Positions 61-32,079 of a DNA stretch of 64,000 nucleotides are shown piece by piece; within the stretch, counting starts at the first letter, position 1, and every line of letters begins with the position of its first letter. The position numbers and the translations under genes are program-made. Under the pieces are notes generated by a model. That model searched no databases. It was given only the letters and a program-made list of their open reading frames with translations, and had not been told where the DNA came from. Source of the stretch: a phage. The stretch is from the sequence record PX423614.1. One strand, 5' to 3'.

Positions 61-86
61 GGCTCTCTTATGAGAGTCCTTTTTTA
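61..86 (+). terminator. hairpin plus T-tract, putative rho-independent terminator
   Basis: GGCTCTC-TTAT-GAGAGTCC imperfect stem-loop followed by TTTTTT. Confidence 0.3.
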
Positions 87-642: not shown

Positions 643-1860
643 ATGTTCCCTGTAACACTTCAAAGCTGGAAAGAATCAGAAGACGTTGTAACTGTTTGGC
701 CTCCTTGTTATGGTTTCCTGAAAGCAGGTTACTATCAGGGTGGTGATTATGGTGAAGATGAAGACGGTGATCCTGACTACTACTGCACATACGACAGCAA
801 CTACGGCTGGAATATCCGCATTAAGGTGTGGAGTAAAAATATGATGGTTCGTCAAGGCACTGCCGAAGAGAACGTTCTCGAAAACATGATGCCTATGTCC
901 GAAATCAAGTACATCTGGAACTCTGGTACACACCTTCCCGCTTATGGTGTAAAACGCTATGGTGATAAAGAGCCTATTGCCACTCAATATTTCCGTGAAG
1001 GGGTGGAGAATGGAGACCCTCGTCCACCTTCCCACGTAGAAACATGGGCAGAAGAAAACAACCGTCCTGATATTACTGATCGCGCTGTAATGGAAGCTTT
1101 TGAAGCATTCATGGATAAAGATTCTGACTCATGTCTGGTGTGGCATGAAGCAGGATTCATGGGTGTTTGTACTGATGGTTGTCCTGCTGATCGCGCTCTG
1201 TTCTATCTGATGCTGAATCGCACATTCTATACAGATGATGAAAAATCTGCTGTGTATGAAATGTTGAACAAGATGTATAAGAAGGGCTGGTCTCCTTTAG
1301 CCTCTCTTGCATTCAGCCGACTGATCAACTCTTCAGTGGATGTGTTCGGTAACGAACGTGTTGCTTTAACAGGGAATGATTATGATTCCTGTATCTTCCA
1401 AGCATCTCTGTATACAGTGGGTGTTGGCAGTACAATGGTTGAACCTCGCCAGACCAAGTGGCGACAGTGTGAATACACCGAAGGTGAAGGGCATCTTCGT
1501 GATGAAGACTTCCCCAGTCTGCTCTACCGTAGTGAAGGTGTGCGAGACTGTCGAGTGAATAACTCAATGTTCTTACCAATCCTTCTTCCTCAGTATTGCA
1601 ATCTGCCGAATGGTGAACGTCCGGTCATCACAGAGAAGTCACTCTTGGTTGAATTTATCCGAGAAGTGGCTGAATCTGAAACATCTTTTGATAAAATTGT
1701 GTTCGGTTATAACTGGAACAATGAAACAGCTTCAGCTCGAAGCTACAACACGTATAACATTATCAGTAGTATGTCCAATGGACTGACAGGTAGTAATTAT
1801 ACAGTACGTCCCTCAGAAGAGTGGGAAACCATTATGGAAAAATTATTCTTTAATAAATAG
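643..1860 (+). CDS. hypothetical protein (405 aa), first gene of candidate modification cluster
   Basis: ORF track; RBS-like AAAGAGG upstream; no motif recognised by eye. Confidence 0.6.
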   Translation: MFPVTLQSWKESEDVVTVWPPCYGFLKAGYYQGGDYGEDEDGDPDYYCTYDSNYGWNIRIKVWSKNMMVRQGTAEENVLENMMPMSEIKYIWNSGTHLPAYGVKRYGDKEPIATQYFREGVENGDPRPPSHVETWAEENNRPDITDRAVMEAFEAFMDKDSDSCLVWHEAGFMGVCTDGCPADRALFYLMLNRTFYTDDEKSAVYEMLNKMYKKGWSPLASLAFSRLINSSVDVFGNERVALTGNDYDSCIFQASLYTVGVGSTMVEPRQTKWRQCEYTEGEGHLRDEDFPSLLYRSEGVRDCRVNNSMFLPILLPQYCNLPNGERPVITEKSLLVEFIREVAESETSFDKIVFGYNWNNETASARSYNTYNIISSMSNGLTGSNYTVRPSEEWETIMEKLFFNK

Positions 1861-1868
1861 AGGCGAAT

Positions 1869-2819
1869 ATGTCAATCTCCGCATCGATTGCTCCGGTAAC
1901 ACCGGCAGAGGATTTCGGTGAGTCAGTGTTCAAAGGAAGAGCTTGCTTTGGTACTTTTAACTGTATGCACATGTATTCTGTTACAGACATTAACGGTGAA
2001 AGTCGTAACCGAACAAGCCTTCGTGATAGAACTTCAGAAATTGAAGTTATTAACTTCTGGCCTCACAATTTTTATGGCGTACCAGCTAAAGATATCGAAA
2101 GAGCTTTGGTTGAAGCAACAGACATTTTTAACTCAATGTCTTGCTATAAAGATATGTTCTCTGTCACTTCGGTGAACTCTATTGCCGTGAACCTTCGAAA
2201 CCATCCAGCAGACAAGGTGTTTACTGGACTAATGACCATCCGTAGCTATTTGGATGGTGATTTTAATGGAATGGAGTTCCTTCAGGAAGGCGTACAAGAC
2301 AAGGAAGAGTTGCTTAAGCGACAACGAATCGGTTTAGCTCTACGCCTAGCTGGTTTAAGTCGTAACTTCTTTGGTCGCTGGTGTTATAGTAATGACGTAG
2401 ACTCAACTGATGAGTCAGCAGCGACTTATTTTGATGGTGACATGAGTGCAATTGCATTTCTGCCACTAATTTGCACCACTGATGAATTTTCTGAAAACGT
2501 ATGGGTTCAGAATGTGTTCGGTGTTGATGATAACCGAGATGGTTATGTACGAAACCATAATGATGGAGTTCTCCGTCGTATGGCACGTCGTCGTGACCAA
2601 GACCCTGACCATTACGAGAGTATGAGTGAATGGTTACGTCTCTGGTCAACTTGTGCAGGTCACAAGAGAGAAGTATTAGATCAGCGTATGGATAGAATTA
2701 CTGTTCGTAGTTTTATTGAACGTCTGATGCAAGCAGTACCTTCCTCAATGACACCAGAAGAAGCTGGTGCCCGTGTTGTTTCCCTTTTTGATGAACTCGT
2801 GGAGTATTACAATGACTAA
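1869..2819 (+). CDS. hypothetical protein (316 aa)
   Basis: ORF track; stop TAA overlaps the next ATG (ATGACTAA). Confidence 0.6.
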   Translation: MSISASIAPVTPAEDFGESVFKGRACFGTFNCMHMYSVTDINGESRNRTSLRDRTSEIEVINFWPHNFYGVPAKDIERALVEATDIFNSMSCYKDMFSVTSVNSIAVNLRNHPADKVFTGLMTIRSYLDGDFNGMEFLQEGVQDKEELLKRQRIGLALRLAGLSRNFFGRWCYSNDVDSTDESAATYFDGDMSAIAFLPLICTTDEFSENVWVQNVFGVDDNRDGYVRNHNDGVLRRMARRRDQDPDHYESMSEWLRLWSTCAGHKREVLDQRMDRITVRSFIERLMQAVPSSMTPEEAGARVVSLFDELVEYYND

Positions 2820-3618
2820 GCGCGCTTTCCTTATTGGCTCTGACCCTGAAATGTTTGTTCGTACTGCTTCCGGTATTATCACCTCTGTGGCTGGTAAGCT
2901 GGGCTGTTCTAAAGATAATAAAATTGATCTGGCTCCTGATGTTCGTCTTCAAGAAGACAACGTTCTGGCTGAGTTTGATATTAACCCACAGAAAGGGTTT
3001 GAAGCGTTTGATGATAATATTCAGCGTGGTATTGATCTGACTAACAAAGTTCTCAATGAACGTGGCATGGAGGCAGCACTTGGGATTAGCTCTCATGTGT
3101 TCACTTCAGAAGAACTTGAATCATTCCACCCGTCAGCTTTTGTATTTGGCTGTACTCCTGATTTCAATGCCTTCACTGGACAAAAGAACCCTTCACCAGT
3201 CGCAACTGATAAGGGTTTGCGTACTGCTGGGGGTCATGTGCACCTTGGTGTCTCCGGGACTTTAGAGATTACTCGACAAACTCAAATGATGTTGGGTGTG
3301 TTGTGTGATTACTTCCTGTCCTTGCCAGCTGTGATCATGGATAAAGACACTCGTCGTAAAGAGTTGTACGGAAAGGCTTCTGCCATTCGCTACAAAGATT
3401 ACGGTATTGAATATCGTTCTCTTTCTAACTTCTGGATTGGTGATAAGTCCACTCGCAAGTTTGTTTATGAGCAAGTGGATAAGGTTGTTCAGGGTTGTGA
3501 TATGGAAGTGTTGATGTCACTTCACTCTCGCCTTCCAATTGAAAAGCTTCACAACATCATCAACAGCAACGATGTTAAAGAAGCGGATAAATTCTCCTCT
3601 AAACTCCAGATTGTATAA
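2812..3618 (+). CDS. hypothetical protein, possibly divergent amidoligase-like
   Basis: ATG at 2812 (MTKRAFLIGSDPEMF) overlapping upstream stop; GSDPE and GGHVHLG motifs loosely reminiscent of carboxylate-amine ligases; product assignment weak. Confidence 0.55.
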   Translation: MTKRAFLIGSDPEMFVRTASGIITSVAGKLGCSKDNKIDLAPDVRLQEDNVLAEFDINPQKGFEAFDDNIQRGIDLTNKVLNERGMEAALGISSHVFTSEELESFHPSAFVFGCTPDFNAFTGQKNPSPVATDKGLRTAGGHVHLGVSGTLEITRQTQMMLGVLCDYFLSLPAVIMDKDTRRKELYGKASAIRYKDYGIEYRSLSNFWIGDKSTRKFVYEQVDKVVQGCDMEVLMSLHSRLPIEKLHNIINSNDVKEADKFSSKLQIV

Positions 3619-3627
3619 GGTGATATT

Positions 3628-4254
3628 GTGAGCTTGTTAAGAGATTTTCAACACTATTATTGTGGAACATGGATTGCTCAGCGATCACCTGATGGTAAAA
3701 ACCTCCCTCTATATGTGCTTGATGTTCGTCAGCAAGGTAACTTTGATATCGACGACTATTCACACGACGCTGAAATGTCTTTAGTGTTTGAGGCGGAACG
3801 CTGGACTAAAAACTCTGAAGGTCAGTTTGAACGTCAGGTTGTTAGTAATATCCCAGTGTTTGATCACAGCCTCATTCTGGAGTCTCCAGATGTAGGATAC
3901 CTTCAGCATGGTAATAACATGGTGAGCTGGACCCATATCAACCCTGTTCGTCAGCGAGCTAAAGGCTTGATGGGGAATAAACTTCGTGGTGCTCCGCCTT
4001 CTCTCGGACGTTCGATTCCGGGTGATTTGGTGTACAACCTGTTTAATCCAGAGTTTGAAGGGTTGGTTACTCGTTTCATCTATATCAATCCTGTCGATGG
4101 AAAAGTTTATTACAAAGGAGCTTACGTTGGAAACGTGCTTCTTGAAGCTGGTTATGGCGACAATGGTCGTCAATCTTTAAACCTTCTGGAGAAGTTCAAG
4201 CATATTTCTTCAGACCTGTCATCATATAATGTAGAGTTGGTGGAATCATTATGA
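3628..4254 (+). CDS. hypothetical protein (208 aa, GTG start)
   Basis: ORF track; stop overlaps next start (ATGA at 4251). Confidence 0.5.
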   Translation: MSLLRDFQHYYCGTWIAQRSPDGKNLPLYVLDVRQQGNFDIDDYSHDAEMSLVFEAERWTKNSEGQFERQVVSNIPVFDHSLILESPDVGYLQHGNNMVSWTHINPVRQRAKGLMGNKLRGAPPSLGRSIPGDLVYNLFNPEFEGLVTRFIYINPVDGKVYYKGAYVGNVLLEAGYGDNGRQSLNLLEKFKHISSDLSSYNVELVESL

Positions 4255-5351
4255 CAACCGTAGCACAAGTTTTTGGATACCGTAACCCTCGCTTATCTGA
4301 ACCGCATCCAAGTATTGCTTTTCAGTGTGGTGTTGGTATTGAGTTAGAAGTCGAAGGTACAACTGACATTGACGCTGATATGTGGGTTTGTACTGAAGAT
4401 GGCTCTCTTCGTGATGGTTGTGAATTAGTATGTGCACGACCTTACAACGGTGAAGAACTACTTCGTGCTATTAACAATCTGAGTGAAGCAGTACAGGATT
4501 CCGGAGCCGAGGGAACTTGGCGCTGCTCCACTCACGTTCATATGGATATGCGTGACGCTGATAGTAATATCCTTAAGAAAGTTATTCTTGGATGGACGTT
4601 CTATGAAAAGATGATGTTCAAATGTTCTGGATACCATCGCTATCGTAGCAACTTCTGTCCAGCTTTTGCTGTCGTTCAAGCACAAGTTATGAATGCTTCG
4701 TCAGCGTTCAACCGAGACGGGGAAGCTTTCTTCCACTCTCTTGTTAATAGCTGGGATAAATATACCTCCCTTAATCTTTTGCCTCTATCTCAATTTGGTT
4801 CTGTTGAGTTCCGTATCTCAGAGCCGAAGTGGAAAAAGAGCCAACTTCTGAATCTGGTCAACCGCTTCTTGGTTCTCAAGAAACTGGCTGTTGAATATGC
4901 AGATTTAGACAATGAAGCTTATGTTGAGAAGTTGAATGAGCTGCGCTTCGCTCCTATGATTCAACATCTACCCCTAGACTATACTCCAAGAGACAGCGAT
5001 CTCACTGAAGGGTATCGTCTTGCTCGTGATATTCTCTTCTGTCGTGAGCAATCTGTAACTTTGGTTGGTCGTGTTCGTGTGCAACAGACTGGCCCTGATG
5101 GTGAAGTCCTTATCAACTTACGTGATATGAATGACTTCTATGGTTTCTTGGGATATGTGCGCGGTAATGCCAACAGTGTCTACGAAGAGATCATGACCTA
5201 CTACACCCCTCAGATTGAAAGCACTCGAATCGCAACGGTTCGTGAAATTCGTCACATATTTGCATTGATGCGTGAATCAGGTAGCAGTGATGATAACGTC
5301 ACTGGTTATATTCCAGACCATCTGGAAATGCAATTAGAACGACTGCTGTAA
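4251..5351 (+). CDS. putative amidoligase (COOH-NH2 ligase, glutamine-synthetase-like superfamily)
   Basis: N-terminal GVGIELEVEG, EDGSLRDGCELV and CSTHVHMD motifs resemble the phage/bacterial amidoligase family; assignment from memory of family signatures. Confidence 0.5.
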   Translation: MTTVAQVFGYRNPRLSEPHPSIAFQCGVGIELEVEGTTDIDADMWVCTEDGSLRDGCELVCARPYNGEELLRAINNLSEAVQDSGAEGTWRCSTHVHMDMRDADSNILKKVILGWTFYEKMMFKCSGYHRYRSNFCPAFAVVQAQVMNASSAFNRDGEAFFHSLVNSWDKYTSLNLLPLSQFGSVEFRISEPKWKKSQLLNLVNRFLVLKKLAVEYADLDNEAYVEKLNELRFAPMIQHLPLDYTPRDSDLTEGYRLARDILFCREQSVTLVGRVRVQQTGPDGEVLINLRDMNDFYGFLGYVRGNANSVYEEIMTYYTPQIESTRIATVREIRHIFALMRESGSSDDNVTGYIPDHLEMQLERLL

Positions 5352-5428
5352 CACAACGGGCGCTCTTATACAGGGCGCATTTAAAGGTTAATTAGATGAA
5401 AGGGTTTACCCTTCAGGTGGATTAGAAA

Positions 5429-7462
5429 ATTTGTGGTATCGTATTAGCTGGCGGCAACATGACCTCAGCAGATTTGGACATTTTCAACCAACTTCTGTAT
5501 GCTGGTGTTTTCCGTGGACAGCACTCAACTGGTGTGTTTGGTCAGCGTAAAGGTGAAAAGCAAGTCTTCTCTTATAAAGAAGCTCTTCCTTCTTATGCTT
5601 TTATGCTCCAGACAGAATATACAAATATTACCAAAGGGCTTACGAACTACGTAGTTCCTCCTTCGTGGATTGTTGGTCACAGCCGACATGCCACTCGTGG
5701 GGCTGTCAATGCTCGAAATGCTCACCCATTTACTCACGGGGATATTACTCTGGTTCATAATGGAACCCTGTTAGATCAAGATCTCCTTCCTGACAGTAAG
5801 CGTTTCGAAGTTGATAGTGAAAACATCTGCCACTCAATTAACACCATTGGAGCAGCAGAGACTATCCAAAAACTGGATGGTGCATTCACTTTGATTTGGC
5901 ATGATGCTAAAGACAACACGCTTCACATTATCCGTAATGATGAGCGTCCTTTCCACCTAGCCCGCTGTGGTTTGGATTGGTTTGGAGCTTCTGAAGAAGC
6001 TATGCTTATGTGGATTTTAGAGCGTTCTAAGTCCCATAAGAACCGTATCAATGACCACTTCGAATGTAAAGTGGGAACTGAGTATATCTTTGATGTGTCT
6101 AACAGTCGTATGACTCTGGTTCAAGAGGTGGAGCACACGCTTCCGGTTTTTACGGTAACGAGTCGCTGGGGCGGCTATTACTCGAACTCCTCTCTTTATC
6201 AGAACCAACAGACAAACAAATCAAGCAGCAGCACAAGCGACATTTACGGAAACAAAGACGACAAGCCCGGCGTGACAAGCGGAGACATTCGTCGTCGTAA
6301 AGCGATTGAAGACCAGAACAAACTGGCTGCCGATCGTGGTCTTCCTTATCGTCGTGATGGTCGTGTGGATATTATTCCTCATGAGTTCCATGCTTATAAC
6401 AACACAGATCGTGGTAAGATGGTTGGTTACATCTACGATGATAAAGCTCAAGAGTATGTCGAAGGGGATGTTCACAACGTAGCCAAAGATGAATATCTTA
6501 AGGCTCTTGAAAACCCAAAGGTAGTATATCGCGGGACGATTGCTTGTATCTCCGAAGTGGACAGTATGATTCGCCTCGTACTAACTTCAGGGCTGTTTGT
6601 TGATGCTACAGATAAGGAGCCTCAAAGCACTACTGCTGATTTTGATGATGATATCCCTTTTGATGCAGAGGACTCCTTCATCACTAAGAATGGTGTAGAA
6701 GTCACTCGTAAGTTCTGGGAATCTCACTCTCATGGTGACTGTGGTGGTTGTGATAAGCACATTGACTGGAAAGATGCTCGTAAGGCTGTGTTTGCTTATC
6801 AGGCATACTGGCATCCAGAATGCTTCGAAGCGTTATCTAAAACCTCTGAAGAGGAAGAAGATGTGCCTTTGGGTGTATGTGCTATCTGTGGTGAAGTCAA
6901 GACTGATTTCGAGTTTGACAACGAAATGAGTAAACTTCGTGGTGAAGACGTTTGTTATATCTGCTCCAAAGAAATCAAAGATAAAGTAAAGAATGTTACT
7001 CTATCTGAAGGTTATATTTGGACTAAAGCAGTAGACACAACCAACCCACGTCGTCCTGAAGTAGCTGTTCGTGTTGATGAACGTATGCTTAGCCGTATGA
7101 TTGTAATGGTCAGCTCAGCAAAACGTTCAGGGGATATTACACTTGCAGATGTTCCTAATTCGTATTTGGAAAAACGTGGTGGTGATACTTATGCCATCTC
7201 TGTTTATGGTCCAAAGAATTCCCCAAAGGAGGTACCCGCTGAGAAAGCGGAGACATTTCCAGAAAAGTCAACCTCTCTCCGAAAAACAGTTGTCAGTTAT
7301 GATGGACAACGAACAGCTGAGTTTACAAAAGCCCTCTGGACTTCAATTGGGTTTTGTGCAGTCTGTTATAAACAAATTCCGTGGCGTGATGCAGAAACTT
7401 GCTCACTGAACAAAGAAAACAGGGTGATCTGTAATTCAGATTACTGTAAAGGTAAACACTAA
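5429..7462 (+). CDS. class II (Ntn) glutamine amidotransferase with C-terminal multi-CxxC zinc-ribbon extension; probable ATT start
   Basis: In-frame CGIV immediately upstream of the ATG at 5459 (TAG-AAA-ATT-TGT-GGT-ATC-GTA); AGGTGG RBS 8 nt before ATT 5429; HSRHATRG...NAHPF...HNGTL motifs typical of PurF/GlmS/AsnB-type GATase; C-terminal CGGC/CAIC/CYIC/CAVC pairs. Confidence 0.7.
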   Translation: MCGIVLAGGNMTSADLDIFNQLLYAGVFRGQHSTGVFGQRKGEKQVFSYKEALPSYAFMLQTEYTNITKGLTNYVVPPSWIVGHSRHATRGAVNARNAHPFTHGDITLVHNGTLLDQDLLPDSKRFEVDSENICHSINTIGAAETIQKLDGAFTLIWHDAKDNTLHIIRNDERPFHLARCGLDWFGASEEAMLMWILERSKSHKNRINDHFECKVGTEYIFDVSNSRMTLVQEVEHTLPVFTVTSRWGGYYSNSSLYQNQQTNKSSSSTSDIYGNKDDKPGVTSGDIRRRKAIEDQNKLAADRGLPYRRDGRVDIIPHEFHAYNNTDRGKMVGYIYDDKAQEYVEGDVHNVAKDEYLKALENPKVVYRGTIACISEVDSMIRLVLTSGLFVDATDKEPQSTTADFDDDIPFDAEDSFITKNGVEVTRKFWESHSHGDCGGCDKHIDWKDARKAVFAYQAYWHPECFEALSKTSEEEEDVPLGVCAICGEVKTDFEFDNEMSKLRGEDVCYICSKEIKDKVKNVTLSEGYIWTKAVDTTNPRRPEVAVRVDERMLSRMIVMVSSAKRSGDITLADVPNSYLEKRGGDTYAISVYGPKNSPKEVPAEKAETFPEKSTSLRKTVVSYDGQRTAEFTKALWTSIGFCAVCYKQIPWRDAETCSLNKENRVICNSDYCKGKH

Positions 7463-7473
7463 GAGGTATAGTT

Positions 7474-7707
7474 ATGGAAGTTCGTAAACTGATGTTGGAT
7501 AACGTGGTAACTACCCGCCGTATTCCGATGACAAGCACAGGATGTGATAACCTCCGAGCAATTCAGAAGTGGATGCAAGAAGGTATTGGGAAGCTGGTTG
7601 ACTCTCCAGTAGAAATCCCTTTTCCAACCGTTATCAATAACGTGTTGGCTGACTATGTTAAAATGAAGGGGATTAAAGTTGAGCCTCATGTCAAGCAAGG
7701 GAGCTAA
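7474..7707 (+). CDS. hypothetical small protein (77 aa)
   Basis: ORF track; RBS-like AAGAGG upstream. Confidence 0.4.
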   Translation: MEVRKLMLDNVVTTRRIPMTSTGCDNLRAIQKWMQEGIGKLVDSPVEIPFPTVINNVLADYVKMKGIKVEPHVKQGS

Positions 7708-7909
7708 GCCTCACCTGACAATGCTGGAGTATCAACAACTCCGACTTCAACAACTGGTAACGGAGCAGCGAAAGCTGTATCCGTTTGCTTTTAACTTAAT
7801 CGACTCTCCAAGCGATGCCCAAGAAGACGAAATGTTCGCTGAGTATTGGGCAATCGAAGCTAAAATTCAATCCTGTCGTAACGAAATTCTTAAACTAAAA
7901 GGTATCTAA
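7679..7909 (+). CDS. hypothetical small protein (76 aa or shorter)
   Basis: ORF track; overlaps previous ORF, true start may be internal. Confidence 0.35.
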   Translation: MSLMSSKGAKPHLTMLEYQQLRLQQLVTEQRKLYPFAFNLIDSPSDAQEDEMFAEYWAIEAKIQSCRNEILKLKGI

Positions 7910-7911
7910 AA

Positions 7912-9147
7912 ATGACTACTCGTATCCGTGTTCTTCCGTATGGCCCGTCTGATTCTGTTAACGCTCTGGTATCTGCTATCAGTGATACTATCCGTGATGA
8001 ACGCATCAATGCTAACGTGATGGGGCTTCTTTCAGAGAATAGCCGCTGGCGTTCTCGTGAAGGTGATGTGGTTGTTAACTACGGGAACCGTCGCTATCCT
8101 GAATCATTCTTTGGTTCTGCAACCGTCCTTAACCGTACCGCAGCCTTATATATGGCAGCGAACAAACGTCGTGCTTTCAGTGTGATGGACCAAGCAGGTG
8201 TTAAAACTGTGGAATACACAGATGTTCAAGAGACTGCTCAGGAGTGGTCAAACACTGGTAATATTGTGTATGAGCGCCATGAGCTGACTGGTCACTCTGG
8301 TTCGGGCATTGTTGTTGTAGAACCGGGTGATTCAATTGGTCAAGCTGAACTGTACACCAAAGGTATTCAAGGCCCACGTCGTGAATGGCGTGTCCATGTG
8401 TTCAAAGGTGTAATCACCTATGTTCAGAAGAAGATTCGTCGCAATGGTTATCGCGAAGACCCTAACTATCGTGAAGATATTCGTAATCACCACACTGGCT
8501 GGGTTTACTCAAGCTCCTTCACAGATGCTCCGAATGACGCCTCTCTGATCAATGCAGTGAAAGCTGTTGAATCAATGGGTCTGGATTTCGGTGCAGTTGA
8601 TATTATCACCAAAGGTCAAGAAGCGTGGGTACTGGAAGTTAATACAGCACCGGGCCTGACTGGTACAACTCTGGATACTTACCGTCATAACATTCTTGAG
8701 TTTGTTAAAGCTCAAAACCCTCTCTATACTCCTCAGTATAAAGTGGTTTACCAGACTCCGATTGAAGATGGAGACGGTGAGTTGGTGGATGATATTGAAA
8801 GTGCTGATGATGAAAACTTTGCACTGGAAGGACAAGTAGCACAGCCGATTGATTCAGTTGATGTGGTTCCTGAAGAAATGCAACTGGAAGGTCAGATGAA
8901 TACTCAAACTATTCGTAATGCACCTACTGGCTACACTTTGTCTCGTGGCTACTGGATTGCAAATATCCGTCATGTCCACAACAACCTGCAACCGAATGCA
9001 ATGTCTGCCAATGTCATCCTGTTCTGTGATGGTCGTAACTTCTACCGCAGTGGTTGGAACGTTCCGGTCAATCCAGTCCAGATTCATAACCCTCGCAAGT
9101 TAGAGTCTGTCAATGTTGAAGGTAGCGAAGTAGCAGTAACTCTGTAA
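7912..9147 (+). CDS. ATP-grasp family ligase (RimK/glutathione-synthetase-like)
   Basis: C-terminal half shows GxDxxxxxG...WVLEVNTAPGL, the characteristic ATP-grasp E-V-N-x-x-PG region, plus basic-loop region RREWRVHVFKG. Confidence 0.6.
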   Translation: MTTRIRVLPYGPSDSVNALVSAISDTIRDERINANVMGLLSENSRWRSREGDVVVNYGNRRYPESFFGSATVLNRTAALYMAANKRRAFSVMDQAGVKTVEYTDVQETAQEWSNTGNIVYERHELTGHSGSGIVVVEPGDSIGQAELYTKGIQGPRREWRVHVFKGVITYVQKKIRRNGYREDPNYREDIRNHHTGWVYSSSFTDAPNDASLINAVKAVESMGLDFGAVDIITKGQEAWVLEVNTAPGLTGTTLDTYRHNILEFVKAQNPLYTPQYKVVYQTPIEDGDGELVDDIESADDENFALEGQVAQPIDSVDVVPEEMQLEGQMNTQTIRNAPTGYTLSRGYWIANIRHVHNNLQPNAMSANVILFCDGRNFYRSGWNVPVNPVQIHNPRKLESVNVEGSEVAVTL

Positions 9148-9173
9148 TTAAATTAAACAAAAAGGAATTTGTA

Positions 9174-9416
9174 ATGTTGTCTATCGAAGATTTGATCAGC
9201 CGTGGAATGACCGAAGAAAAAGAGCCTCTGATTGTAGGCTCTCGTAAAGCTATCAACCAACTCTGTGAAGAGTTCGGTATCACAAATAAGAGAATGATTG
9301 GTAATCAGTTCTCTGCAATCATCACCTTCCTCAAACGAGGTGATAAATGTTCAATGGAATGTGCTGAGCGTATCATCGCAATTGCACAAGCAGATAAGGG
9401 AGTAACAAGTCTGTGA
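9174..9416 (+). CDS. hypothetical small protein (80 aa)
   Basis: ORF track. Confidence 0.4.
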   Translation: MLSIEDLISRGMTEEKEPLIVGSRKAINQLCEEFGITNKRMIGNQFSAIITFLKRGDKCSMECAERIIAIAQADKGVTSL

Positions 9417-9598
9417 ATAAATACACAATCATGTTTCGTACAATGTCAGCAGAAGGAAATATTCAATCTCTGGACATTCAAGCAGATCGCTTTGAATCAC
9501 TTGGAACAAGTGTTAACTTCTTCCGAGGTACAGAGCTAGTGGGTACATTCCAATCTGATGTGTTGACTGGTGTGATCAAACACTTCGAAGTAGAATAA
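9413..9598 (+). CDS. hypothetical small protein (61 aa)
   Basis: ORF track; start overlaps previous stop. Confidence 0.35.
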   Translation: MNKYTIMFRTMSAEGNIQSLDIQADRFESLGTSVNFFRGTELVGTFQSDVLTGVIKHFEVE

Positions 9599-9655
9599 TT
9601 TGCTTTAGCCTCTTCGAAAGAGGAGGCTAGTTCGAATTTAACTAGAGGTTGTAAA

Positions 9656-10072
9656 ATGGTTAATAATAAACTGGATATGTTTAAAAGTCGTATCTTAGAT
9701 GTAGAGTATTCCAAAAACCTCTTTGAGAAGCACAAGAAAGAGGCAAAGGAAGAGTTAGAAAGTCTTCTGAAAGATGAAGAGATTCCTCTCTTTGATCGTT
9801 GGTGCTTGTTTCTGGAACACGGTGACTTATTTCCTGTAGCTTCAAGTGTAATTAGTAGAGCTGTTACAAGTGCAGTGGAAGGTTTTTATGACTTGGAAAG
9901 ATACCGAACTTATATCTTCTCTGATATTTTTGAAGAATACTGGTTTGGTGAAAAAGAGTCAATTTCTGATGAAACCAAGAAAGCCATTAAGGGATGTTTT
10001 GAAGAATTCCCTGAAAAGCCAATCCGATCAATCATCTTCTCTGGATATTCTGGTTTCCAACATGATTGGTAA
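9656..10072 (+). CDS. hypothetical protein (138 aa)
   Basis: ORF track; RBS-like AGAGG upstream. Confidence 0.5.
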   Translation: MVNNKLDMFKSRILDVEYSKNLFEKHKKEAKEELESLLKDEEIPLFDRWCLFLEHGDLFPVASSVISRAVTSAVEGFYDLERYRTYIFSDIFEEYWFGEKESISDETKKAIKGCFEEFPEKPIRSIIFSGYSGFQHDW

Positions 10073-10078
10073 GCAGCC

Positions 10079-10276
10079 ATGAAAAAGATTCTATTTTTCC
10101 TCTCCTTATTCAGTGTGTCAGCGATCGCCGCTGATGAATGCATCTCTAAAGATTCAGGGAGAGGTCAAATCATAACTCAATGCGGCAGCCATGTAACAGT
10201 TGTCGATTCTATAACTCAAACAGTTCTCGTGTGTAACGGGACTTCTTGTACAAAAGAAATTTTAAACAAAAGGTAA
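10079..10276 (+). CDS. small secreted cysteine-rich protein (65 aa)
   Basis: N-terminal signal-like MKKILFFLSLFSVSAIAA; six Cys in mature part. Confidence 0.45.
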   Translation: MKKILFFLSLFSVSAIAADECISKDSGRGQIITQCGSHVTVVDSITQTVLVCNGTSCTKEILNKR

Positions 10277-10280
10277 TGTA

Positions 10281-10712
10281 ATGTCTGATAAAGTATTAGT
10301 TGCAACGTATGGTTCTCTTCGTAAAGGTCAACACAACCACGCTATCAATGCTCGTGCAGGTGGTGTGTCTATTGGTGAAGGGTGGACAGTAAACAACTGT
10401 AACCTGTATCAGTATTGCACAGCATACTTCCCAAGTGTATCTTTGGAGCATGACAGCAATGGTAAGCCTGTTCGTGTAGAAGTCTTTGAAACAACCCAAG
10501 CTGGTCTGGAAGGTCCGTATGACGGTCTGGAAGGTCATCGTGGTAATGATAACCCATACACCTTTTACAAGCGTACACTGATTCCAGTATTATTGGACAG
10601 CGGTGAAACTGTGGAAGCGTGGATTTATCACATCGACGAAGAACAAGATGTTCTGGTTGAATCTGGTGACTGGACAGCATATCTGGCAGGTGAGAAGGAT
10701 GACAGTAACTGA
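10281..10712 (+). CDS. gamma-glutamyl cyclotransferase-like (AIG2/GGCT fold) protein
   Basis: N-terminal YGSLRKGQHNH matches the YGSL-x-x-G-x-x-NH signature of GGCT/AIG2-like enzymes. Confidence 0.5.
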   Translation: MSDKVLVATYGSLRKGQHNHAINARAGGVSIGEGWTVNNCNLYQYCTAYFPSVSLEHDSNGKPVRVEVFETTQAGLEGPYDGLEGHRGNDNPYTFYKRTLIPVLLDSGETVEAWIYHIDEEQDVLVESGDWTAYLAGEKDDSN

Positions 10713-10940: not shown

Positions 10941-12731
10941 ATGTCAAAGATCATTTTGGGAGACACAGGCTGTAAAGAGTGTATCTCTCATGGTCGTGAT
11001 AAGACCCGCAATCACATGATTCTCTTCCGAAATGAAGAGTCCGGTGAGGAGTGGGGTTCATGTAACAGATGTGGTGCGTATGAAATCTTCGAGAAAGGAA
11101 TGACGCCCACTCCTAATGAAAAGAAAGAGCTGTCCCCTGAAGAACTCCGAGAAGTCTTAGACGATTGCTTAGAGCTTCCTCAGGGAGAGTTGACCCGTCG
11201 CTTAATTCCTAAAGCTGTATCTGAACGCTATGGATGCCGTATTGGTTTAAGTCAAACAGACGGTCAAACTCCTGACAGCTACTTCTTCCCTCGCGAACGT
11301 GATGGGAATATTGTTGGATATGAAGTAAAACTTCTAGACAGCAAGAAATTCTATTATGTAGGTAATGTGAAAGAAGCCGACTTATTTGGTATGGCTCAAG
11401 CACAACGTGGCGATGTTTACAATAAGAAGCTCTTCATCTTTGAAGACCCACTCTCTTGTATGTCTGGATTCCACGTACTTACTGCGTTCACAAACGCAAC
11501 TAATATCAAACCTGCTTGTGTCTCTCTTCCGTTCGGTGCAGGTTCAATCTCTTCTGTGTTGTCAAGAAATCGTGATTTTATTAATGGTTTCGAGGAGATT
11601 GTACTCTGCATGGACAATGATGATGCAGGCGAGATTGCATTGACTAAAGGTCGTTCTCTGTACCCACATGTCAAGTTTGCAAGAATTCCAAAAGGTACGT
11701 TTACTTACAACGGACAGGAAAAGGAAATCAAAGATGCAAACGACATGTTACTGGCAGGGAGAGGTCAAGAGCTTTTCAATAATCTGAAGTATTCAGCTAA
11801 GCGGGAATCTCCTGCTGGAGCTGTTACAGTTTTTGATTGTCTTGAAGACGCTCTGAAGAAAGCGGAATGGGGTATCCCTTATCCGTGGAAAACTCTCAAT
11901 GACATGACCTTTGGTATTCGTTGGGGGGAGATGGTTGCAATCGGCGGTGGTGTTGGTTCAGGTAAAACCTTAATCGCACACGAACTGGTAGCATGGCTTT
12001 GCCTTGAGCATGGTTTTAATGGTGGTGGCTTCTTCTTGGAAGAGAAGGTAGGCATGTCTGTTAAGAACATTGCTGGCAAGTCTGCATCTGTTCCATTTCA
12101 CCGACCGGATGTTGAGTATGAAGAAAGTCAGCTACGAGATGAAGCACTTCGATACGCTGATAAGTTTTTCTTGTACGACAACTTTGGACAGAATGAGTGG
12201 GAAGACATTAAGCAGTGTATTCGCTTTTGGGTAGTTGAGAATCAATGTAAGTTTATCATCCTTGATAACATCACTGCATTGGTATCTCACTTAACTCCAT
12301 CCGAAGTGAATACAGAAATCAGTAAGATTGCTTCAGAGCTTGCTGGTATGTGTAAGGAATTAGACTTCACTGCTTTTGTGTTATCTCACTTGAATGCTCC
12401 GGCGGGCGGTGCCCCTCACGAAGAAGGTGGTCAGGTTAAAGAAGTACAGTTTACTGGCTCACGTTCATTAATGCGCTGGTGTCAATGTATTATCGGTTTC
12501 GAACGTAATAAACAAGCGGATGGGTTAGGTAAAAACTTGTCAATCATACGTCTGCTCAAAGAGCGTAACTATGGACAGACGGGGGTTTGCTATACCAAAT
12601 ATATTAACGAAACAGGTCGTCTTGTAGAACGAGAAGATCATGAAGTTGATGAAGATAATCCGTTTACAGTCACCAACGGAGAAGATGCAGCTTCCTTACT
12701 TTCACAAGAAGGGGAGGCACGTCCGTGGTAA
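10941..12731 (+). CDS. DNA primase/helicase (T7 gp4-like: zinc finger, TOPRIM, SF4 DnaB-like helicase)
   Basis: N-terminal CxxC...CxxC zinc finger; central TOPRIM-like acidic motifs (EDPLS, DND); Walker [10 protein letters not shown]; RBS AAGGAGG upstream. Confidence 0.85.
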
Positions 12732-13273
12732 AGAAACTGTATGCGTTTGATATTGAAGGTGATAACCTCTATGACGGTATTCAGAATGTCTGGTGTATAT
12801 GGATATTTGATGTACTGTCTGGAGAACGGTGGGGGTATCGCCCTCACCAAATTGAAGAAGCACTACACAAACTGAAAGAAGCTGATGTAGTAATAGGTCA
12901 CAATATTATTGATTTTGACCTTCCTGCTTTGTTTAAATTCTACTCTCATGTGATACCTTTTCGTTTTAATGTCTTTGATACCCTGTGCCTGAGTCGATAC
13001 CTCAAGCCTGACCGTATTGGTGACAGTCCAGAATACCCCAAAGGCGACCCTAGACATGGCCCTCGCGGTCATGGCCTCAAGCAATGGGGCGAATTTCTGG
13101 GAGAGCTGAAGGGTGATTATGGCGAACAGGAAGAAGCATGGGATGCATTCACTGAAGACATGTTCACATATTGTGAGCAAGACGTTAACTTGACAGTTAA
13201 GGTTTACATGTGTCTTTGCCAAATGGCAGGATTTGATTATAGAAATCCCCCATCTCTCAACTGGAAAATGTAG
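12725..13273 (+). CDS. family A DNA polymerase 3'-5' exonuclease domain, encoded as a separate gene
   Basis: Exo I FDIEGDNL, Exo [13 protein letters not shown], Exo III YCEQD motifs; 182 aa with its own stop. Confidence 0.7.
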
Positions 13274-13275
13274 AA

Positions 13276-14748
13276 ATGATTAAGATTCCATTGTCTGAAT
13301 TGAACCTTCAAGAAGGAGAAGCCCTCAGTGTAGGGCTTGACCTGATTCGTAATTTGATCAGAGATAACGTAGTCCCTGATGGCATCTATCCTGTTATTGC
13401 AGGTGGTGCTATCCGTGATACGTTCTTCCAAAATAGAACTCCGAATGATGTTGATATCTTCCTAGTTCAAGGAGGGTTTCGTTGGAACACTCGTCAGGAA
13501 AACAGCCCTGCTAACGTAGGTAATGCTGCACTTTTCCTTGACAACTTCTTATCTTGGACAGAAAGTAAGGGGCTTCAGGTTACATCTCGACTAATTCAGC
13601 CTGTTAACGGGACAACCTATGCTGAAGCGCTTTTCACTTTCCAAGAGATTCTGGAAATTGAGATTGATCAAGTTAAAATCCAGATGATGATTAATCTACC
13701 TTTGGATATGGATACTTTAAGCCGTCGCTTCCCTATGATCTGTCAAGGGTTTATGACTCTTGGTAATCTGTATGTGTCAAACGAAGGTTTGTTTGCAATG
13801 TCATACACTCGTGACATTCCTGTGGTATCTAGTCGTGAAATGAAGTACGTTCACAAGAAGTGGCCTGAAGCAACTGTTGCAGTTTATAGCAGTTCTACCG
13901 AATATATGCACCTTGCAATGGGAGCTTTCGGTGAGCCAGAAGTTCACCTGATTAGTGATTTAGTTGGACCTATGGCTGGTGTAAATTTATATCAGAATCA
14001 GCGTCGTCATTATACCCTGAAGATGATGGAAACTATATTAAACATTCCTCAGGAAAGGGGTCGTAGTTATCTGGACGAGGAAGTTAACCTACAGACAGAA
14101 TGGTCTAGTGGATTAACCACTATAGGTGCTGAAGCAATCACGCAGCCTTGGACTCCGGGAACTAACAGACGAGATCTTCAAGCTTTTAATGAAGAAACTT
14201 CTCGAACAGTTCGAGGAGGTGTTGTAGGGTATAACGTACAACCTCATGAAAGACCTCGTGACACTTTCACTGGCAGTTTTGGTAGTGCACGCTCTTCTGG
14301 AGTGGATACTCGTACATGGCATGTCCAAGGAGGAACTGCTCGTCCTATTCCCTCTCCGTCAATGGATGATTTGCAGCGTTCTCGTCGTTCATGGGAAACA
14401 GTAAGCTCTGTTGTTCAGGGTCTACGTGCTAGAGATATTGAACGTGTAGAAGTTGGTGATTTGCCAACCCCTACAGAAGATCGAGTATCAGCTATAGCGG
14501 CTCGTGAAGCTGCTCATATTGGTTTTGCATCATTAACTAATGACGCTAACGAAGCTCCTCGACCTGTTGGTCGTCGTAATGGTCTAGCTCACTCTGACAC
14601 TGCACTTGGTGCAGAACTACGAGCAGCAGCTCGTGAGCTATCTGGTGAGCTTCACAACAACCTAGCAGGTGTTACACTATCTCGTGAAACAGCTCGTAAT
14701 ATGATTAATAATTTGGCATCATCTGTACAAGGAAACAGAAACTCATGA
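13276..14748 (+). CDS. Pol-beta-superfamily nucleotidyltransferase (CCA-adding/poly(A)-polymerase-like head) with disordered R/S/G-rich C-terminus
   Basis: AGGAIRD-x13-DVDIF fits the G[GS]-x9-13-DxD nucleotidyltransferase motif; C-terminal ~200 aa low complexity. Confidence 0.5.
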   Translation: MIKIPLSELNLQEGEALSVGLDLIRNLIRDNVVPDGIYPVIAGGAIRDTFFQNRTPNDVDIFLVQGGFRWNTRQENSPANVGNAALFLDNFLSWTESKGLQVTSRLIQPVNGTTYAEALFTFQEILEIEIDQVKIQMMINLPLDMDTLSRRFPMICQGFMTLGNLYVSNEGLFAMSYTRDIPVVSSREMKYVHKKWPEATVAVYSSSTEYMHLAMGAFGEPEVHLISDLVGPMAGVNLYQNQRRHYTLKMMETILNIPQERGRSYLDEEVNLQTEWSSGLTTIGAEAITQPWTPGTNRRDLQAFNEETSRTVRGGVVGYNVQPHERPRDTFTGSFGSARSSGVDTRTWHVQGGTARPIPSPSMDDLQRSRRSWETVSSVVQGLRARDIERVEVGDLPTPTEDRVSAIAAREAAHIGFASLTNDANEAPRPVGRRNGLAHSDTALGAELRAAARELSGELHNNLAGVTLSRETARNMINNLASSVQGNRNS

Positions 14749-32029: not shown

Positions 32030-32079
32030 GAAATAAAGAAGCCCCCTTCCTTTTTACAGGTTGGGGGCTTTTCTTGTTT
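32030..32079. terminator. bidirectional rho-independent terminator between convergent gene blocks
   Basis: AAGCCCCC...GGGGGCTT stem with inner CCT/AGG pairs, T-rich runs on both sides; immediately 3' of the 1481-aa gene stop (32078-32080). Confidence 0.6.

What the first reader, a model, noticed from the sequence alone, without database searches (positions are those of the whole stretch)
2812..10712. Clustered amidoligase-like, class II glutamine amidotransferase, ATP-grasp and gamma-glutamyl-cyclotransferase-like genes: candidate amide-bond tagging or modification system
Four ATP/amide-bond enzymes sit in one co-oriented early block together with unknown ORFs and a small secreted Cys-rich protein. 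Amidoligase + GAT-II + ATP-grasp combinations were predicted computationally to build peptide-like tags or metabolites, and related enzymes have been tied to phage DNA base hypermodification. The sequence does not reveal the substrate, so the cluster's role in this phage is open.
Basis: partly seen in the sequence, partly recalled or inferred. Interest (0 to 1): 0.8.

Follow-up and report, generated by a model that had tools for sequence, protein, structure and literature searches.

The report
Conserved phage amide-bond ligase cassette
This is a real block of phage genes, shared by over 300 phage genomes, that encodes three ATP-dependent amide-bond ligases, a glutamine-type amidohydrolase and a gamma-glutamyl-removing enzyme; it is already described in the literature as a predicted "peptide/peptidoglycan modification cassette", and what it acts on has never been tested.

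Summary
Window 2812-10712 encodes five co-oriented enzymes, not four. They are a phiEco32-type COOH-NH2 ligase (PF14395), Amidoligase_2 (PF12224), a class II glutamine amidotransferase with a zinc ribbon, a RimK-clade ATP-grasp ligase and a GGACT/AIG2 cyclotransferase. Catalytic residues are invariant across lineages only 21-40% identical.

The window is a Gordonclarkvirinae (phiEco32-like) coliphage, about 99% identical to deposited genomes. The enzymes are inherited together in about 290-330 of 50,697 phage records. Gene order is conserved from LUZ24 to RIO-1, always beside the replication genes.

The cassette is already published (Iyer 2009; Hardies 2013; Duhaime 2017) as a hypothetical peptidoglycan or peptide modification system. 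I found no experiment on it.

What I add:
- The amidotransferase keeps its essential N-terminal Cys only if translation starts at ATT (5429), behind a leader identical across two genera.
- The real unit extends upstream to 643/1869.
- A conserved non-enzyme partner (3628-4254) carries an invariant Lys-Gly in a disordered loop, which makes it a candidate acceptor.
- The secreted Cys-rich ORF and DUF7020 form a variable island, not part of the module.
- A link to DNA hypermodification is unsupported. Virion DNA of phage tf, which carries the cassette, is cut by five restriction enzymes.

Verdict: a real and well-defined cassette that is already known, with its substrate still open.

The parts
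643..1860 (+). X1: 405-aa protein of unknown function. Gordonclarkvirinae-specific in sequence and a probable distant paralog of X2.
   Evidence: phrog_13063 E 4e-198. Homologs in SU7 and SU10. It shares the motif S-x-S-C ... P-A-D-x-x-F-x-x-L-M-x-x-R with X2, but hhalign probability is low. The proteins in the equivalent positions are clear paralogs in the Aeromonas and Proteus phages.
1869..2819 (+). X2: 316-aa protein with a novel fold. Its stop overlaps the L1 start by 8 nt.
2812..3618 (+). L1: phiEco32-type COOH-NH2 ligase type 2 (GCS2/GS-like carboxylate-amine ligase).
   Evidence: PF14395 E 2e-8; phrog_3815 E 1e-112. Invariant D11, E13, E54, H142, H144, E200 and R202 across 8 lineages. 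Found in 310 phage records.
3628..4254 (+). X3: 208-aa non-enzymatic partner with a GTG start, built of SH3/Tudor-like beta-barrels. An invariant Lys112-Gly113 sits in a disordered loop. Its stop overlaps the L2 start (ATGA).
4251..5351 (+). L2: Amidoligase_2 (GS-like carboxylate-amine ligase).
   Evidence: PF12224 E 3e-8; phrog_7469 E 5e-142. Invariant E31, E33, E35, E58, H95, H97, E186 and R188. Found in 288 phage records. The 175 profile hits are named, where named, almost all after phages, and many lie on phage-sized contigs.
5379..5428 (+). Conserved leader of the amidotransferase gene: a hairpin (AAGGGTTTACCCTT), a Shine-Dalgarno sequence (GGTGGA) and an in-frame TAG.
   Evidence: 100% identical in five Gordonclarkvirinae from two genera. 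The flanking sequence is only 40-87% identical.
5429..7462 (+). Class II (Ntn) glutamine amidotransferase or amidohydrolase with an ATT start, an uncharacterised middle domain and C-terminal CxxC...CxxC zinc ribbons.
   Evidence: GATase_6 E 3e-14. With the ATT start the GlmS model aligns residue 2 to residue 2. C2, G3, R29, R86, T89, N97-F101, H110-N111-G112 and D129-S130 are invariant; C438, C441, C484 and C487 are (nearly) invariant. ATT is used in 5 Gordonclarkvirinae and ATG in Grimontviridae and LUZ24. tblastn alignments start at residue 1 in 56 of the 60 listed homologs, sampled across all 328 records.
7474..7707 (+). X4: 77-aa DUF7195 protein, a conserved small partner.
   Evidence: PF23825 E 3e-19. 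Homologs in SU10, the Proteus and Vibrio phages, and LUZ24 gp20.
7688..7909 (+). X5: small protein of about 74 aa, restricted to Gordonclarkvirinae. The mechanical ORF starts at TTG 7679; ATG 7688 is the more likely start.
   Evidence: phrog_13464 E 6e-42, aligning residues 4-76 to profile positions 2-74 of 74. The equivalent SU7 CDS is 74 aa.
7912..9147 (+). L3: RimK-clade ATP-grasp ligase (residues 1-270) plus an acidic linker and a C-terminal domain of unknown function.
   Evidence: phrog_2599 E 2e-169; NCBIfam MptN and RimK family. RimK structures E 2e-3. Invariant Gly-rich loop, K174, R191, N192, D230, E242 and N244. Found in 312 phage records.
9174..9598 (+). Two small overlapping ORFs (80 aa at 9174-9416 and 61 aa at 9413-9598), found only in Gordonclarkvirinae.
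   Evidence: phrog_8339 and phrog_8591. Homologs only in SU7 and SU10 among the loci examined.
9599..10280 (+). Variable accessory island inside the cassette, not a module component: DUF7020 (9656-10072) and a 65-aa protein with a signal peptide and four Cys (10079-10276).
   Evidence: PF22885 E 3e-20. No homolog in SU7, SU10 or any other locus. At least 80% of the island is covered in only 11 of 94 matching records.
10281..10712 (+). GGACT/AIG2-type gamma-glutamyl(amine) cyclotransferase.
   Evidence: PF06094 E 9e-16; phrog_2520 E 4e-41. Invariant Y10-G11-x-L13, D81, E84-G85, Y96 and R98.

Best explanation
This is the phiEco32/LUZ24/RIO-1-type phage amidoligase cassette. It is a set of cytoplasmic enzymes, encoded in the early/replication-gene region, that makes and trims gamma-glutamyl-type amide bonds on a substrate that has not been identified.

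Shown here: five enzymes with intact catalytic motifs are inherited together with two or three non-enzymatic partners.

Inferred from family chemistry:
1. The two GS-like ligases (L1, GCS2-like; L2, Amidoligase_2) each activate a carboxylate as an acyl-phosphate and join it to an amine.
2. The Ntn amidotransferase, always encoded next to L1 or L2, does one of two things. It hydrolyses glutamine to feed ammonia to a ligase (turning a carboxylate into a carboxamide), or it hydrolyses a gamma-glutamyl amide as EgtC does.
3. The RimK-clade ATP-grasp adds one or more amino acids, most likely glutamate, to a carboxylate.
4. The GGACT enzyme removes a gamma-glutamyl group from an amine as 5-oxoproline. 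This gives the pathway a built-in deprotection or recycling step.

My preferred acceptor is the invariant Lys112 in the flexible loop of the cassette's own X3 protein. X3 would then be a carrier or target protein, by analogy with LysW/LysX, RimK/S6 and PafA/Pup. I put this specific step at only about 0.25. A peptidoglycan precursor (the published guess) and small amines such as polyamines remain comparably likely.
For: - Family assignments.
- Catalytic and ligand-binding residues are invariant in homologs down to 21-30% identity: L1, L2, GAT, GGACT, ATP-grasp.
- Co-inheritance: 328, 310, 312 and 288 phage records, with near-identical counts for the main host genera (Pseudomonas, Escherichia, Proteus, Salmonella, Cronobacter).
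- Conserved gene order L1-X3-L2-GAT-X4-ATPgrasp plus GGACT in LUZ24, SU10 and Proteus and Vibrio phages, and (with X4 not identified) in two metagenomic lineages. The Aeromonas record ends within the GAT gene. RIO-1, the V07 jumbo phage and DES1 carry the enzymes with rearrangements or partial sets.
- One lineage adds a Peptidase_C26 gamma-glutamyl hydrolase and a GGACT fusion. This points to gamma-glutamyl chemistry as the common thread.
- Overlapping stops and starts (X2/L1, X3/L2) suggest translational coupling.
- No enzyme has an N-terminal signal sequence (translations).
- SU10 proteomics detected the ATP-grasp, GAT, GGACT and L2 orthologs (PMC4281155).
- For X3 as acceptor: a non-enzyme beta-barrel fold, and Lys112-Gly113 invariant inside a disordered loop.
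- The literature describes the same cassette (PMC5498523; PMC10580990).
Against: - No substrate, product or phenotype is known for any member. I found none in 10 full-text searches.
- The GAT could be either an ammonia donor or a hydrolase; sequence cannot tell these apart.
- X3 Lys112 could instead be a binding or interface residue. No mass-spectrometry evidence of an adduct exists.
- No acidic-tail or Pup-like tag protein was identified in the block.
- X2 and X1 remain without any function.
- The Pfam RimK hit is marginally below the gathering score.
Confidence: 0.6

Rival explanations
1. Peptidoglycan-precursor modification (the published hypothesis). The ligases add or alter amide linkages on the stem peptide of cytoplasmic UDP-MurNAc-peptide or lipid II, while the GAT and GGACT amidate or trim it. 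The changed cell wall would then block superinfecting phages.
For: - Stated in PMC5498523 sec. 16, PMC10580990 and PMC11318856, citing Iyer 2009 and Hardies 2013.
- Weak NCBIfam similarity of the ATP-grasp to D-Ala-D-Ala ligases, E 6e-5.
- All phages carrying the full cassette infect Gram-negative Proteobacteria, which share one peptidoglycan chemotype.
- Precedent for a ligase plus a GATase amidating peptidoglycan precursors: MurT/GatD (own knowledge).
Against: - Never tested.
- None of the enzymes is a Mur-type ligase.
- No peptidoglycan-binding, membrane or export signal on any enzyme.
- The hypothesis does not explain the conserved non-enzymatic partners X3, X4 and X2.
- About 8 kb (10% of the genome) is a large investment for exclusion.
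- Remodelling the sacculus within one lytic cycle would have to be fast.
Confidence: 0.22
2. Small-amine (for example polyamine) or gamma-glutamyl metabolite handling. The ligases gamma-glutamylate free amines such as putrescine or spermidine, or they build a gamma-glutamyl peptide. The hydrolase and cyclotransferase release them again. This would tune pools that matter for DNA packaging and for polyamine-based host responses.
For: - The pairing of a GS-like ligase with a gamma-glutamyl hydrolase mirrors the Puu/Pau pathway (own knowledge).
- A Peptidase_C26 of the PuuD type (E 3e-22) was recruited into the cassette in one lineage.
- GGACT acts on gamma-glutamyl-amines (family knowledge).
- LUZ24 gp9 gave an unconfirmed yeast two-hybrid hit to PauA2, a gamma-glutamylpolyamine synthetase (PMC4635203).
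- Polyamines both aid and hinder Pseudomonas phage replication (PMC11898732).
Against: - L1 and L2 are not GlnA/PuuA-type enzymes.
- The cassette has no oxidase or dehydrogenase.
- The two-hybrid hit concerns a different gene and was not confirmed.
- A make-then-break cycle has no obvious net benefit.
- The hypothesis does not explain X3 or X4.
Confidence: 0.13
3. DNA base hypermodification. The cassette decorates phage DNA with an amide-linked group, which would explain the restriction resistance of Gordonclarkvirinae.
For: - Gordonclarkvirinae are reported to be remarkably resistant to restriction-modification systems, with no known modification pathway (PMC11990801 sec. 11).
- The cassette always sits next to the primase/helicase and polymerase genes.
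- The GAT carries zinc ribbons.
Against: - Virion DNA of cassette-bearing phage tf is cut by RsaI, HpaI, EcoRV, SmaI and HaeIII, was cloned, and was Sanger-sequenced directly (cassette presence in tf).
- No hydroxymethylase, base kinase, aGPT-Pplase, glycosylase or TGT-like enzyme is in the block.
- The window encodes ThyX and dCTP deaminase, which is an ordinary route to dTMP.
- The cassette also occurs in many phages with no reported restriction resistance.
- Its position beside the replication genes is explained by shared ancestry of the whole early region.
Confidence: 0.05

Closest known systems
Phage amidoligase or 'peptidoglycan modification' cassette of phiEco32, LUZ24 (gp14-gp22), RIO-1, 7-11, tf, PaP3 and CW02 (Iyer et al. 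2009; Hardies et al. 2013; Duhaime et al. 2017)
   Same: Same gene families and the same order, L1-X3-L2-GAT-X4-ATPgrasp plus GGACT, next to the primase/helicase gene. The window phage is a Gordonclarkvirinae member, about 99% identical to deposited genomes.
   Different: Only details differ. In Gordonclarkvirinae the GAT starts at ATT. The GAT is longer (677 aa against about 430-510 aa) and has extra zinc ribbons. The ATP-grasp has an extra C-terminal domain. There is an additional X1 and small ORFs, plus a variable island with DUF7020 and a secreted protein.
Pupylation (PafA ligase and Dop deamidase/depupylase)
   Different: No Pup-like tag and no proteasome link. L1 and L2 belong to other families (PF14395, PF12224). 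A protein substrate is not shown here.
RimK-family ATP-grasp ligases acting on proteins or carriers (RimK on ribosomal protein S6; LysX/ArgX on the LysW carrier; MptN, CofF)
   Same: The closest sequence relatives of the cassette's ATP-grasp. They add glutamate, or attach a substrate, to a carboxylate.
   Different: No partner with an acidic C-terminal tail was identified. The scores are far below the equivalog cut-offs. The phage enzyme carries extra C-terminal domains.
Gamma-glutamyl protecting-group logic in butirosin biosynthesis (BtrJ ATP-grasp and BtrG cyclotransferase) and EgtA/EgtC in ergothioneine biosynthesis (own knowledge)
   Same: A ligase installs a gamma-glutamyl group. A GGCT-fold enzyme or a class II GATase-fold hydrolase later removes it. 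There is a weak EgtC hit, E 6e-3.
   Different: The cassette has no ACP, PLP, methyltransferase or sulfoxide-synthase partners. The resemblance is by enzyme logic only.
Puu/Pau gamma-glutamyl-polyamine pathway
   Same: A GS-like ligase combined with a gamma-glutamyl hydrolase. A Peptidase_C26 is present in one cassette lineage.
   Different: The ligases are not GlnA-type, and the cassette has no oxidative steps.
Phage thymidine hypermodification pathways (5-hmdU synthesis, 5-HMUDK kinase, aGPT-Pplase; own knowledge)
   Same: They are phage-encoded, lie near replication genes, and can install amino-acid-derived groups.
   Different: None of the defining enzymes is present. DNA of a cassette-bearing phage is restrictable.

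Membership tests
[quoted passage not shown] | Profile match above the gathering score, and GS/GCS2-like metal and ATP motifs | tested here: met
   34.1 bits against a cut-off of 25. phrog_3815 E 1e-112. Invariant D11, E13, E54, H142, H144, E200 and R202.
Amidoligase_2 (PF12224) | Profile match above the gathering score, and the G-x-E-x-E-x-E, S-T-H-x-H and E-x-R motifs | tested here: met
   34.2 bits against a cut-off of 22. Invariant E31, E33, E35, E58, H95, H97, E186 and R188.
Class II (Ntn) glutamine amidotransferase | A catalytic Cys as the first residue after Met removal | tested here: met
   Met only with the ATT start at 5429. The in-frame sequence TAG-AAA-ATT-TGT-GGT gives (M)CGIV. Cys2-Gly3 is invariant in 10 lineages. 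Relatives use ATG-TGT-GG. The ATG start at 5459 used in several GenBank records removes the Cys.
Class II (Ntn) glutamine amidotransferase | Glutamine-binding and oxyanion residues (Arg, Thr, Asn-Gly and Asp equivalents of GlmS R73, T76, N98-G99 and D123) | tested here: met
   R86, T89, N111-G112 and D129 are invariant. GATase_6 E 3e-14. The GlmS model aligns from residue 2.
Class II (Ntn) glutamine amidotransferase | A fused acceptor (synthase) domain that receives the ammonia | tested here: not met
   The C-terminal 430 residues match no synthase domain. There are only zinc-ribbon motifs and a sub-threshold LIM hit. The protein may be a standalone hydrolase, or it may work with a separate ligase.
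ATP-grasp, RimK clade | Profile match, and the ATP-grasp Mg/ATP residues | tested here: inconclusive
   Pfam RimK 19.7 bits, below the cut-off of 21. NCBIfam MptN E 4e-9 and rimK_fam E 2e-6 are both far below their equivalog cut-offs. phrog_2599 E 2e-169. K174, D230, E242, N244 and the Gly-rich loop are invariant. The fold and clade are convincing, but the specific activity is not established.
GGACT/AIG2 gamma-glutamylamine cyclotransferase (PF06094) | Profile match, the YG(S/T)L substrate motif and the catalytic Glu | tested here: met
   59 bits against a cut-off of 22.8. Invariant Y10-G11-x-L13 and E84-G85.
Phage amidoligase cassette (Iyer 2009; Hardies 2013; Duhaime 2017) | Co-occurrence and synteny of two GS-like ligases, GAT-II, an ATP-grasp and GGCT in a phage early/replication region | tested here: met
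   (288-328 records for the four large enzymes; GGCT detected in 156). (gene order). (published description that names phiEco32).
Phage amidoligase cassette (Iyer 2009; Hardies 2013; Duhaime 2017) | Biochemical activity on peptidoglycan peptides, and superinfection exclusion | not testable with these tools
   No experimental report was found in 10 literature searches. This needs muropeptide analysis and genetics.
Phage DNA hypermodification system | A base-activating enzyme (hydroxymethylase, kinase, pyrophosphorylase or transglycosylase) and modified virion DNA | tested here: not met
   No such family appears among the block's ORFs. tf DNA is cut by five restriction enzymes. The nucleoside composition of this phage could not be tested.
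Protein-tagging or carrier system (Pup-like or LysW-like) | A dedicated protein carrying the modified residue, and a demonstrated adduct | tested here: inconclusive
   X3 is a conserved non-enzyme with Lys112-Gly113 invariant in a disordered loop. No adduct data exist, and no tag protein with a conserved acidic or Gln C-terminus was found.

The most novel reading that the evidence does not exclude
The cassette is a virus-encoded protein-modification system. Its ligases build a gamma-glutamyl or oligo-glutamyl-type adduct on the invariant loop lysine (Lys112) of the co-encoded X3 protein, or use X3 as an amino-group carrier. The Ntn amidohydrolase and GGACT act as editing or release enzymes. 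This would be a phage analogue of pupylation or of LysW-type carrier chemistry, and it would be present in more than 300 phages, including therapeutic LUZ24-like and Kuravirus phages.
Probability: 0.2. Interest if true: 0.8.

Novelty: already known. Interest (0 to 1): 0.4.

Why it matters
The cassette takes up about 10% of the genome in several phage groups used or proposed for therapy (LUZ24-like Bruynoghevirus, Kuravirus/Suseptimavirus) and in marine podoviruses. Its catalytic residues are under strong purifying selection. Even so, its substrate has stayed unknown since it was first predicted in 2009.

Solving it would assign function to seven to nine genes in hundreds of phages. It could also reveal a new kind of virus-driven amide-bond chemistry, whether protein tagging, cell-wall editing or amine metabolism.

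The practical gains from this analysis are:
- a corrected gene model (the ATT start that restores the catalytic Cys);
- clear module boundaries;
- removal of non-members (the secreted protein and DUF7020);
- a specific, cheap test (mass spectrometry of X3 Lys112), which is now feasible because BASEL phages Bas86-88 carry the cassette and grow on E. coli K-12.

Tried and rejected
- PDB sequence searches for L1, L2, the GAT domain and GGACT found nothing. Only the ATP-grasp hit RimK, and weakly.
- hhalign of X2 against L1 and L2 was negative. hhalign of L1 against L2 also failed, which shows the test has low power.
- X1 against X2 gave a suggestive shared motif but a probability of 0.3%.
- The afdb50 fold library was unavailable.
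- NCBIfam gave no hits for L1, L2, X1-X3 or GGACT.
- Rfam and the tRNA scan of the region were empty.
- Sigma-70 promoter-like sites were not above the shuffled expectation, and the terminator scan was barely above it.
- The leader RNA fold was not significant, z = -1.0.
- Iyer et al. 2009 and Savalia et al. 2008 could not be retrieved, so their content is cited only through papers that summarise them.
- Literature searches for an experimental function, or for a DNA-modification link, found nothing.
- I considered the idea that the enzymes are decayed remnants and rejected it, because all catalytic motifs are invariant across distant lineages.
- I considered the secreted four-Cys protein as a product or partner and rejected it, because it lies in a variable island.

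Full report
**Identity of the window.** The 7.9-kb region is 97-99% identical to Escherichia phages vB_EcoP-101114UKE3, 4E8, IME267, Bas86/87 and SU7. It is 89% identical to ECBP2, and about 74% identical to Kuravirus relatives over the part that aligns. The SU7 record places it in Gordonclarkvirinae, genus Suseptimavirus. These are the phiEco32-like podoviruses with elongated heads. All genes from 1 to about 32 kb lie on the + strand, and GC skew is positive up to that point.

**Check of the observation.**
- 2812-3618: a phiEco32-type COOH-NH2 ligase type 2 (PF14395).
- 4251-5351: Amidoligase_2 (PF12224).
- 5459-7462: a class II glutamine amidotransferase domain (GATase_6/7/4).
- 7912-9147: a RimK-clade ATP-grasp. 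Pfam is just under threshold, but PHROG is E 2e-169, NCBIfam MptN/RimK is E 4e-9 and RimK in the PDB is E 2e-3.
- 10281-10712: GGACT/AIG2.

So there are five enzymes, three of them ATP-dependent ligases. Between them lie conserved proteins of unknown function: X3 (3628-4254), DUF7195 (7474-7707) and several small ORFs.

**Gene model of the amidotransferase.** The ATG at 5459, used in the SU7, ECBP2 and O18-011 records, yields a protein without the N-terminal Cys. Every Ntn amidotransferase needs that Cys. Upstream and in frame, directly after a TAG, the sequence reads AAA ATT TGT GGT ATC GTA, which translates as I-C-G-I-V, and a GGTGGA Shine-Dalgarno sequence precedes it.

Three lines of evidence support the ATT start.
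- tblastn alignments begin at residue 1 in 56 of the 60 listed homologs, sampled across all 328 records.
- Grimontviridae and LUZ24 have ATG TGT GG at the same position.
- SU10 has no downstream ATG, and its GenBank CDS is annotated from the ATT.

With this start, the GlmS model aligns residue 2 to residue 2. The 50 nt before the ATT are identical in five phages from two genera, whereas flanking sequence is 40-87% identical. ATT initiation is known for E. coli infC and pcnB (own knowledge). It implies low or IF3-sensitive expression.

**Catalytic competence.** I aligned homologs from eight to ten lineages, with identities down to 21-30%. The expected residues are invariant in every enzyme.
- L1: D11, E13, E54, H142, H144, E200, R202.
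- L2: E31, E33, E35, E58, H95, H97, E186, R188.
- GAT: C2, G3, R86, T89, N111-G112, D129, plus a nearly invariant C-terminal CxxC...CxxC zinc ribbon.
- GGACT: the YGxL motif and E84-G85.
- ATP-grasp: the Gly-rich loop, K174, D230, E242, N244.

These are working enzymes, not remnants. None has a signal peptide, so they act in the cytoplasm.

**Distribution and boundaries.** tblastn against 50,697 phage records found each large enzyme in a similar number of records:

| Protein | Records |
|---|---|
| GAT | 328 |
| L1 | 310 |
| ATP-grasp | 312 |
| L2 | 288 |

The counts for the main host genera are nearly the same in all four searches: about 120 Pseudomonas, about 94 Escherichia, 9-11 Aeromonas, 8 Proteus, 7 Salmonella and 6 Cronobacter. 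Vibrio gives 22 records for three of the proteins but only 10 for L2. GGACT (156 records) and X3 (116 records) are shorter and more divergent. Iterative HMMs still recover them in LUZ24 and RIO-1.

Gene order is conserved in:
- LUZ24 gp14-gp24;
- SU10;
- Proteus 3H10_20;
- Vibrio SJSY21;
- Aeromonas LAh_8, where the record ends within the GAT gene;
- two metagenomic phage lineages.

RIO-1 carries all five enzymes in a different order. The jumbo Vibrio phage V07 and Xanthomonas DES1 carry most of them. In the lineages whose flanks were available, the block lies in the same region as the primase/helicase and polymerase genes.

One metagenomic lineage adds a Peptidase_C26 gamma-glutamyl hydrolase and a GGACT fusion. 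Among the 120 listed hits of the L2 profile in 5.8 billion proteins, the few that carry a source name are nearly all named after phages, and many lie on phage-sized contigs.

DUF7020 and the secreted four-Cys ORF are absent from SU7, SU10 and all other loci. They occur in only 11 of 94 relatives, so they form an accessory island.

The most conserved sequence in X3, R-x-x-x-K-G, lies in a disordered loop (residues 107-128). Lys112-Gly113 are invariant across 20 homologs of 21-40% identity. The family has only 86 cluster representatives among 1.84 billion proteins, nearly all of them standalone.

X2 (1869-2819; model pLDDT 79.5) has no PDB counterpart. It matches only uncharacterised proteins of other cassette-bearing phages. 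X1 probably shares a motif with X2.

**What is already known.** Duhaime et al. [quoted passage not shown] They list it as conserved in RIO-1, phiEco32, 7-11, PA11, tf, MR299-2, LUZ24, PaP3 and CW02, and they hypothesise that it alters the cell surface to prevent superinfection. Other papers repeat this attribution to Iyer et al. 2009.

SU10 proteomics detected the ATP-grasp, GAT, GGACT and L2 orthologs. I found no biochemical or genetic test of the cassette.

**Mechanism.** These steps follow from family chemistry and are inferred, not shown. Two GS-like ligases and one ATP-grasp each form an amide bond through an acyl-phosphate. The Ntn enzyme either supplies ammonia or hydrolyses a gamma-glutamyl amide. 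GGACT releases an amine from a gamma-glutamyl-amine as 5-oxoproline.

The recurring theme is gamma-glutamyl-amine chemistry, and the recruited C26 hydrolase reinforces it. The acceptor remains open. I favour the X3 loop lysine, but only slightly (about 0.25). Peptidoglycan precursors (about 0.22) and small amines or polyamines (about 0.13) are the alternatives. For polyamines the only extra hint is an unconfirmed LUZ24 gp9-PauA2 two-hybrid hit.

DNA hypermodification is unlikely (about 0.05):
- tf virion DNA is cut by five restriction enzymes;
- no base-activating enzyme is present in the block;
- the window encodes ThyX and dCTP deaminase.

The restriction resistance reported for Gordonclarkvirinae therefore remains unexplained by this block.

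**Verdict.** The cassette is a real, sharply defined and strongly conserved unit. It is already described in the literature and annotated in near-identical genomes. The DNA-hypermodification link and the secreted-protein component are not supported.

Noticed in passing
window 5379-5449: The amidotransferase gene starts at a non-canonical ATT codon (5429). A leader of about 50 nt (hairpin plus GGTGGA) precedes it and is 100% identical across Kuravirus and Suseptimavirus, while flanking DNA is 40-87% identical. Three of the five GenBank records checked annotate a downstream start that deletes the catalytic Cys.
   Followed up: yes
window 9599-10280: A variable island inside the cassette encodes DUF7020 and a 65-aa protein with a signal peptide and four Cys. 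It is present in only 11 of 94 related genomes. SU10 has an unrelated 69-aa ORF at this spot.
   Followed up: yes
window 13276-15278 and 18027-18677: A CCA-adding-enzyme-like nucleotidyltransferase, a dCTP deaminase (PF22769 E 2e-34) and a ThyX thymidylate synthase (PF02511 E 1e-42) sit among the replication genes. dCTP deaminase plus ThyX looks like an ordinary dTMP supply. This weakens the published suggestion that these phages use dU instead of T, and leaves their restriction resistance unexplained.
   Followed up: partly
L001 3514-3984 (SU7); UFV-P2 ORF24 (PMC3890496): HNH homing endonucleases are inserted at different points of the cassette in relatives: between X2 and L1 in SU7, and between L2 and GAT in UFV-P2. 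Both insertions are absent from the window.
   Followed up: no
L010 3285-5197 and L011 5616-7528: A metagenomic phage lineage carries the cassette with two additions next to L1: a Peptidase_C26 gamma-glutamyl hydrolase (E 3e-22), and a 369-aa GGACT with an unknown 240-aa N-terminal domain.
   Followed up: partly
window 12725-13273, 21862-23577, 23568-24044: The family A DNA polymerase is split. The exonuclease subunit gene follows the primase/helicase gene. The polymerase gene lies about 8.5 kb downstream and is followed directly by an HNH endonuclease gene.
   Followed up: no
window 643-2819: X1 and X2 share a motif (S-x-S-C ... P-A-D-x-x-F-x-x-L-M-x-x-R). Their positional equivalents in Aeromonas and Proteus phages are clear paralogs. 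This fast-evolving, phage-only protein family travels with the conserved enzymes.
   Followed up: partly
window 61-78: A terminator-like hairpin (GGCTCTCTTATGAGAGTC followed by a T-run) lies just upstream of the co-oriented block. It may mark the start of the transcription unit.
   Followed up: no
window ~32000; 32078-36523 (- strand): GC skew changes sign at about 32 kb, where gene orientation switches. A 1481-aa ORF on the minus strand begins the opposite (late) arm.
   Followed up: no
L007 (LUZ24), literature: LUZ24 early protein gp9, encoded upstream of the cassette, gave an unconfirmed yeast two-hybrid interaction with host PauA2, a gamma-glutamylpolyamine synthetase (PMC4635203). This is a possible lead linking these phages to gamma-glutamyl-amine metabolism.
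   Followed up: no
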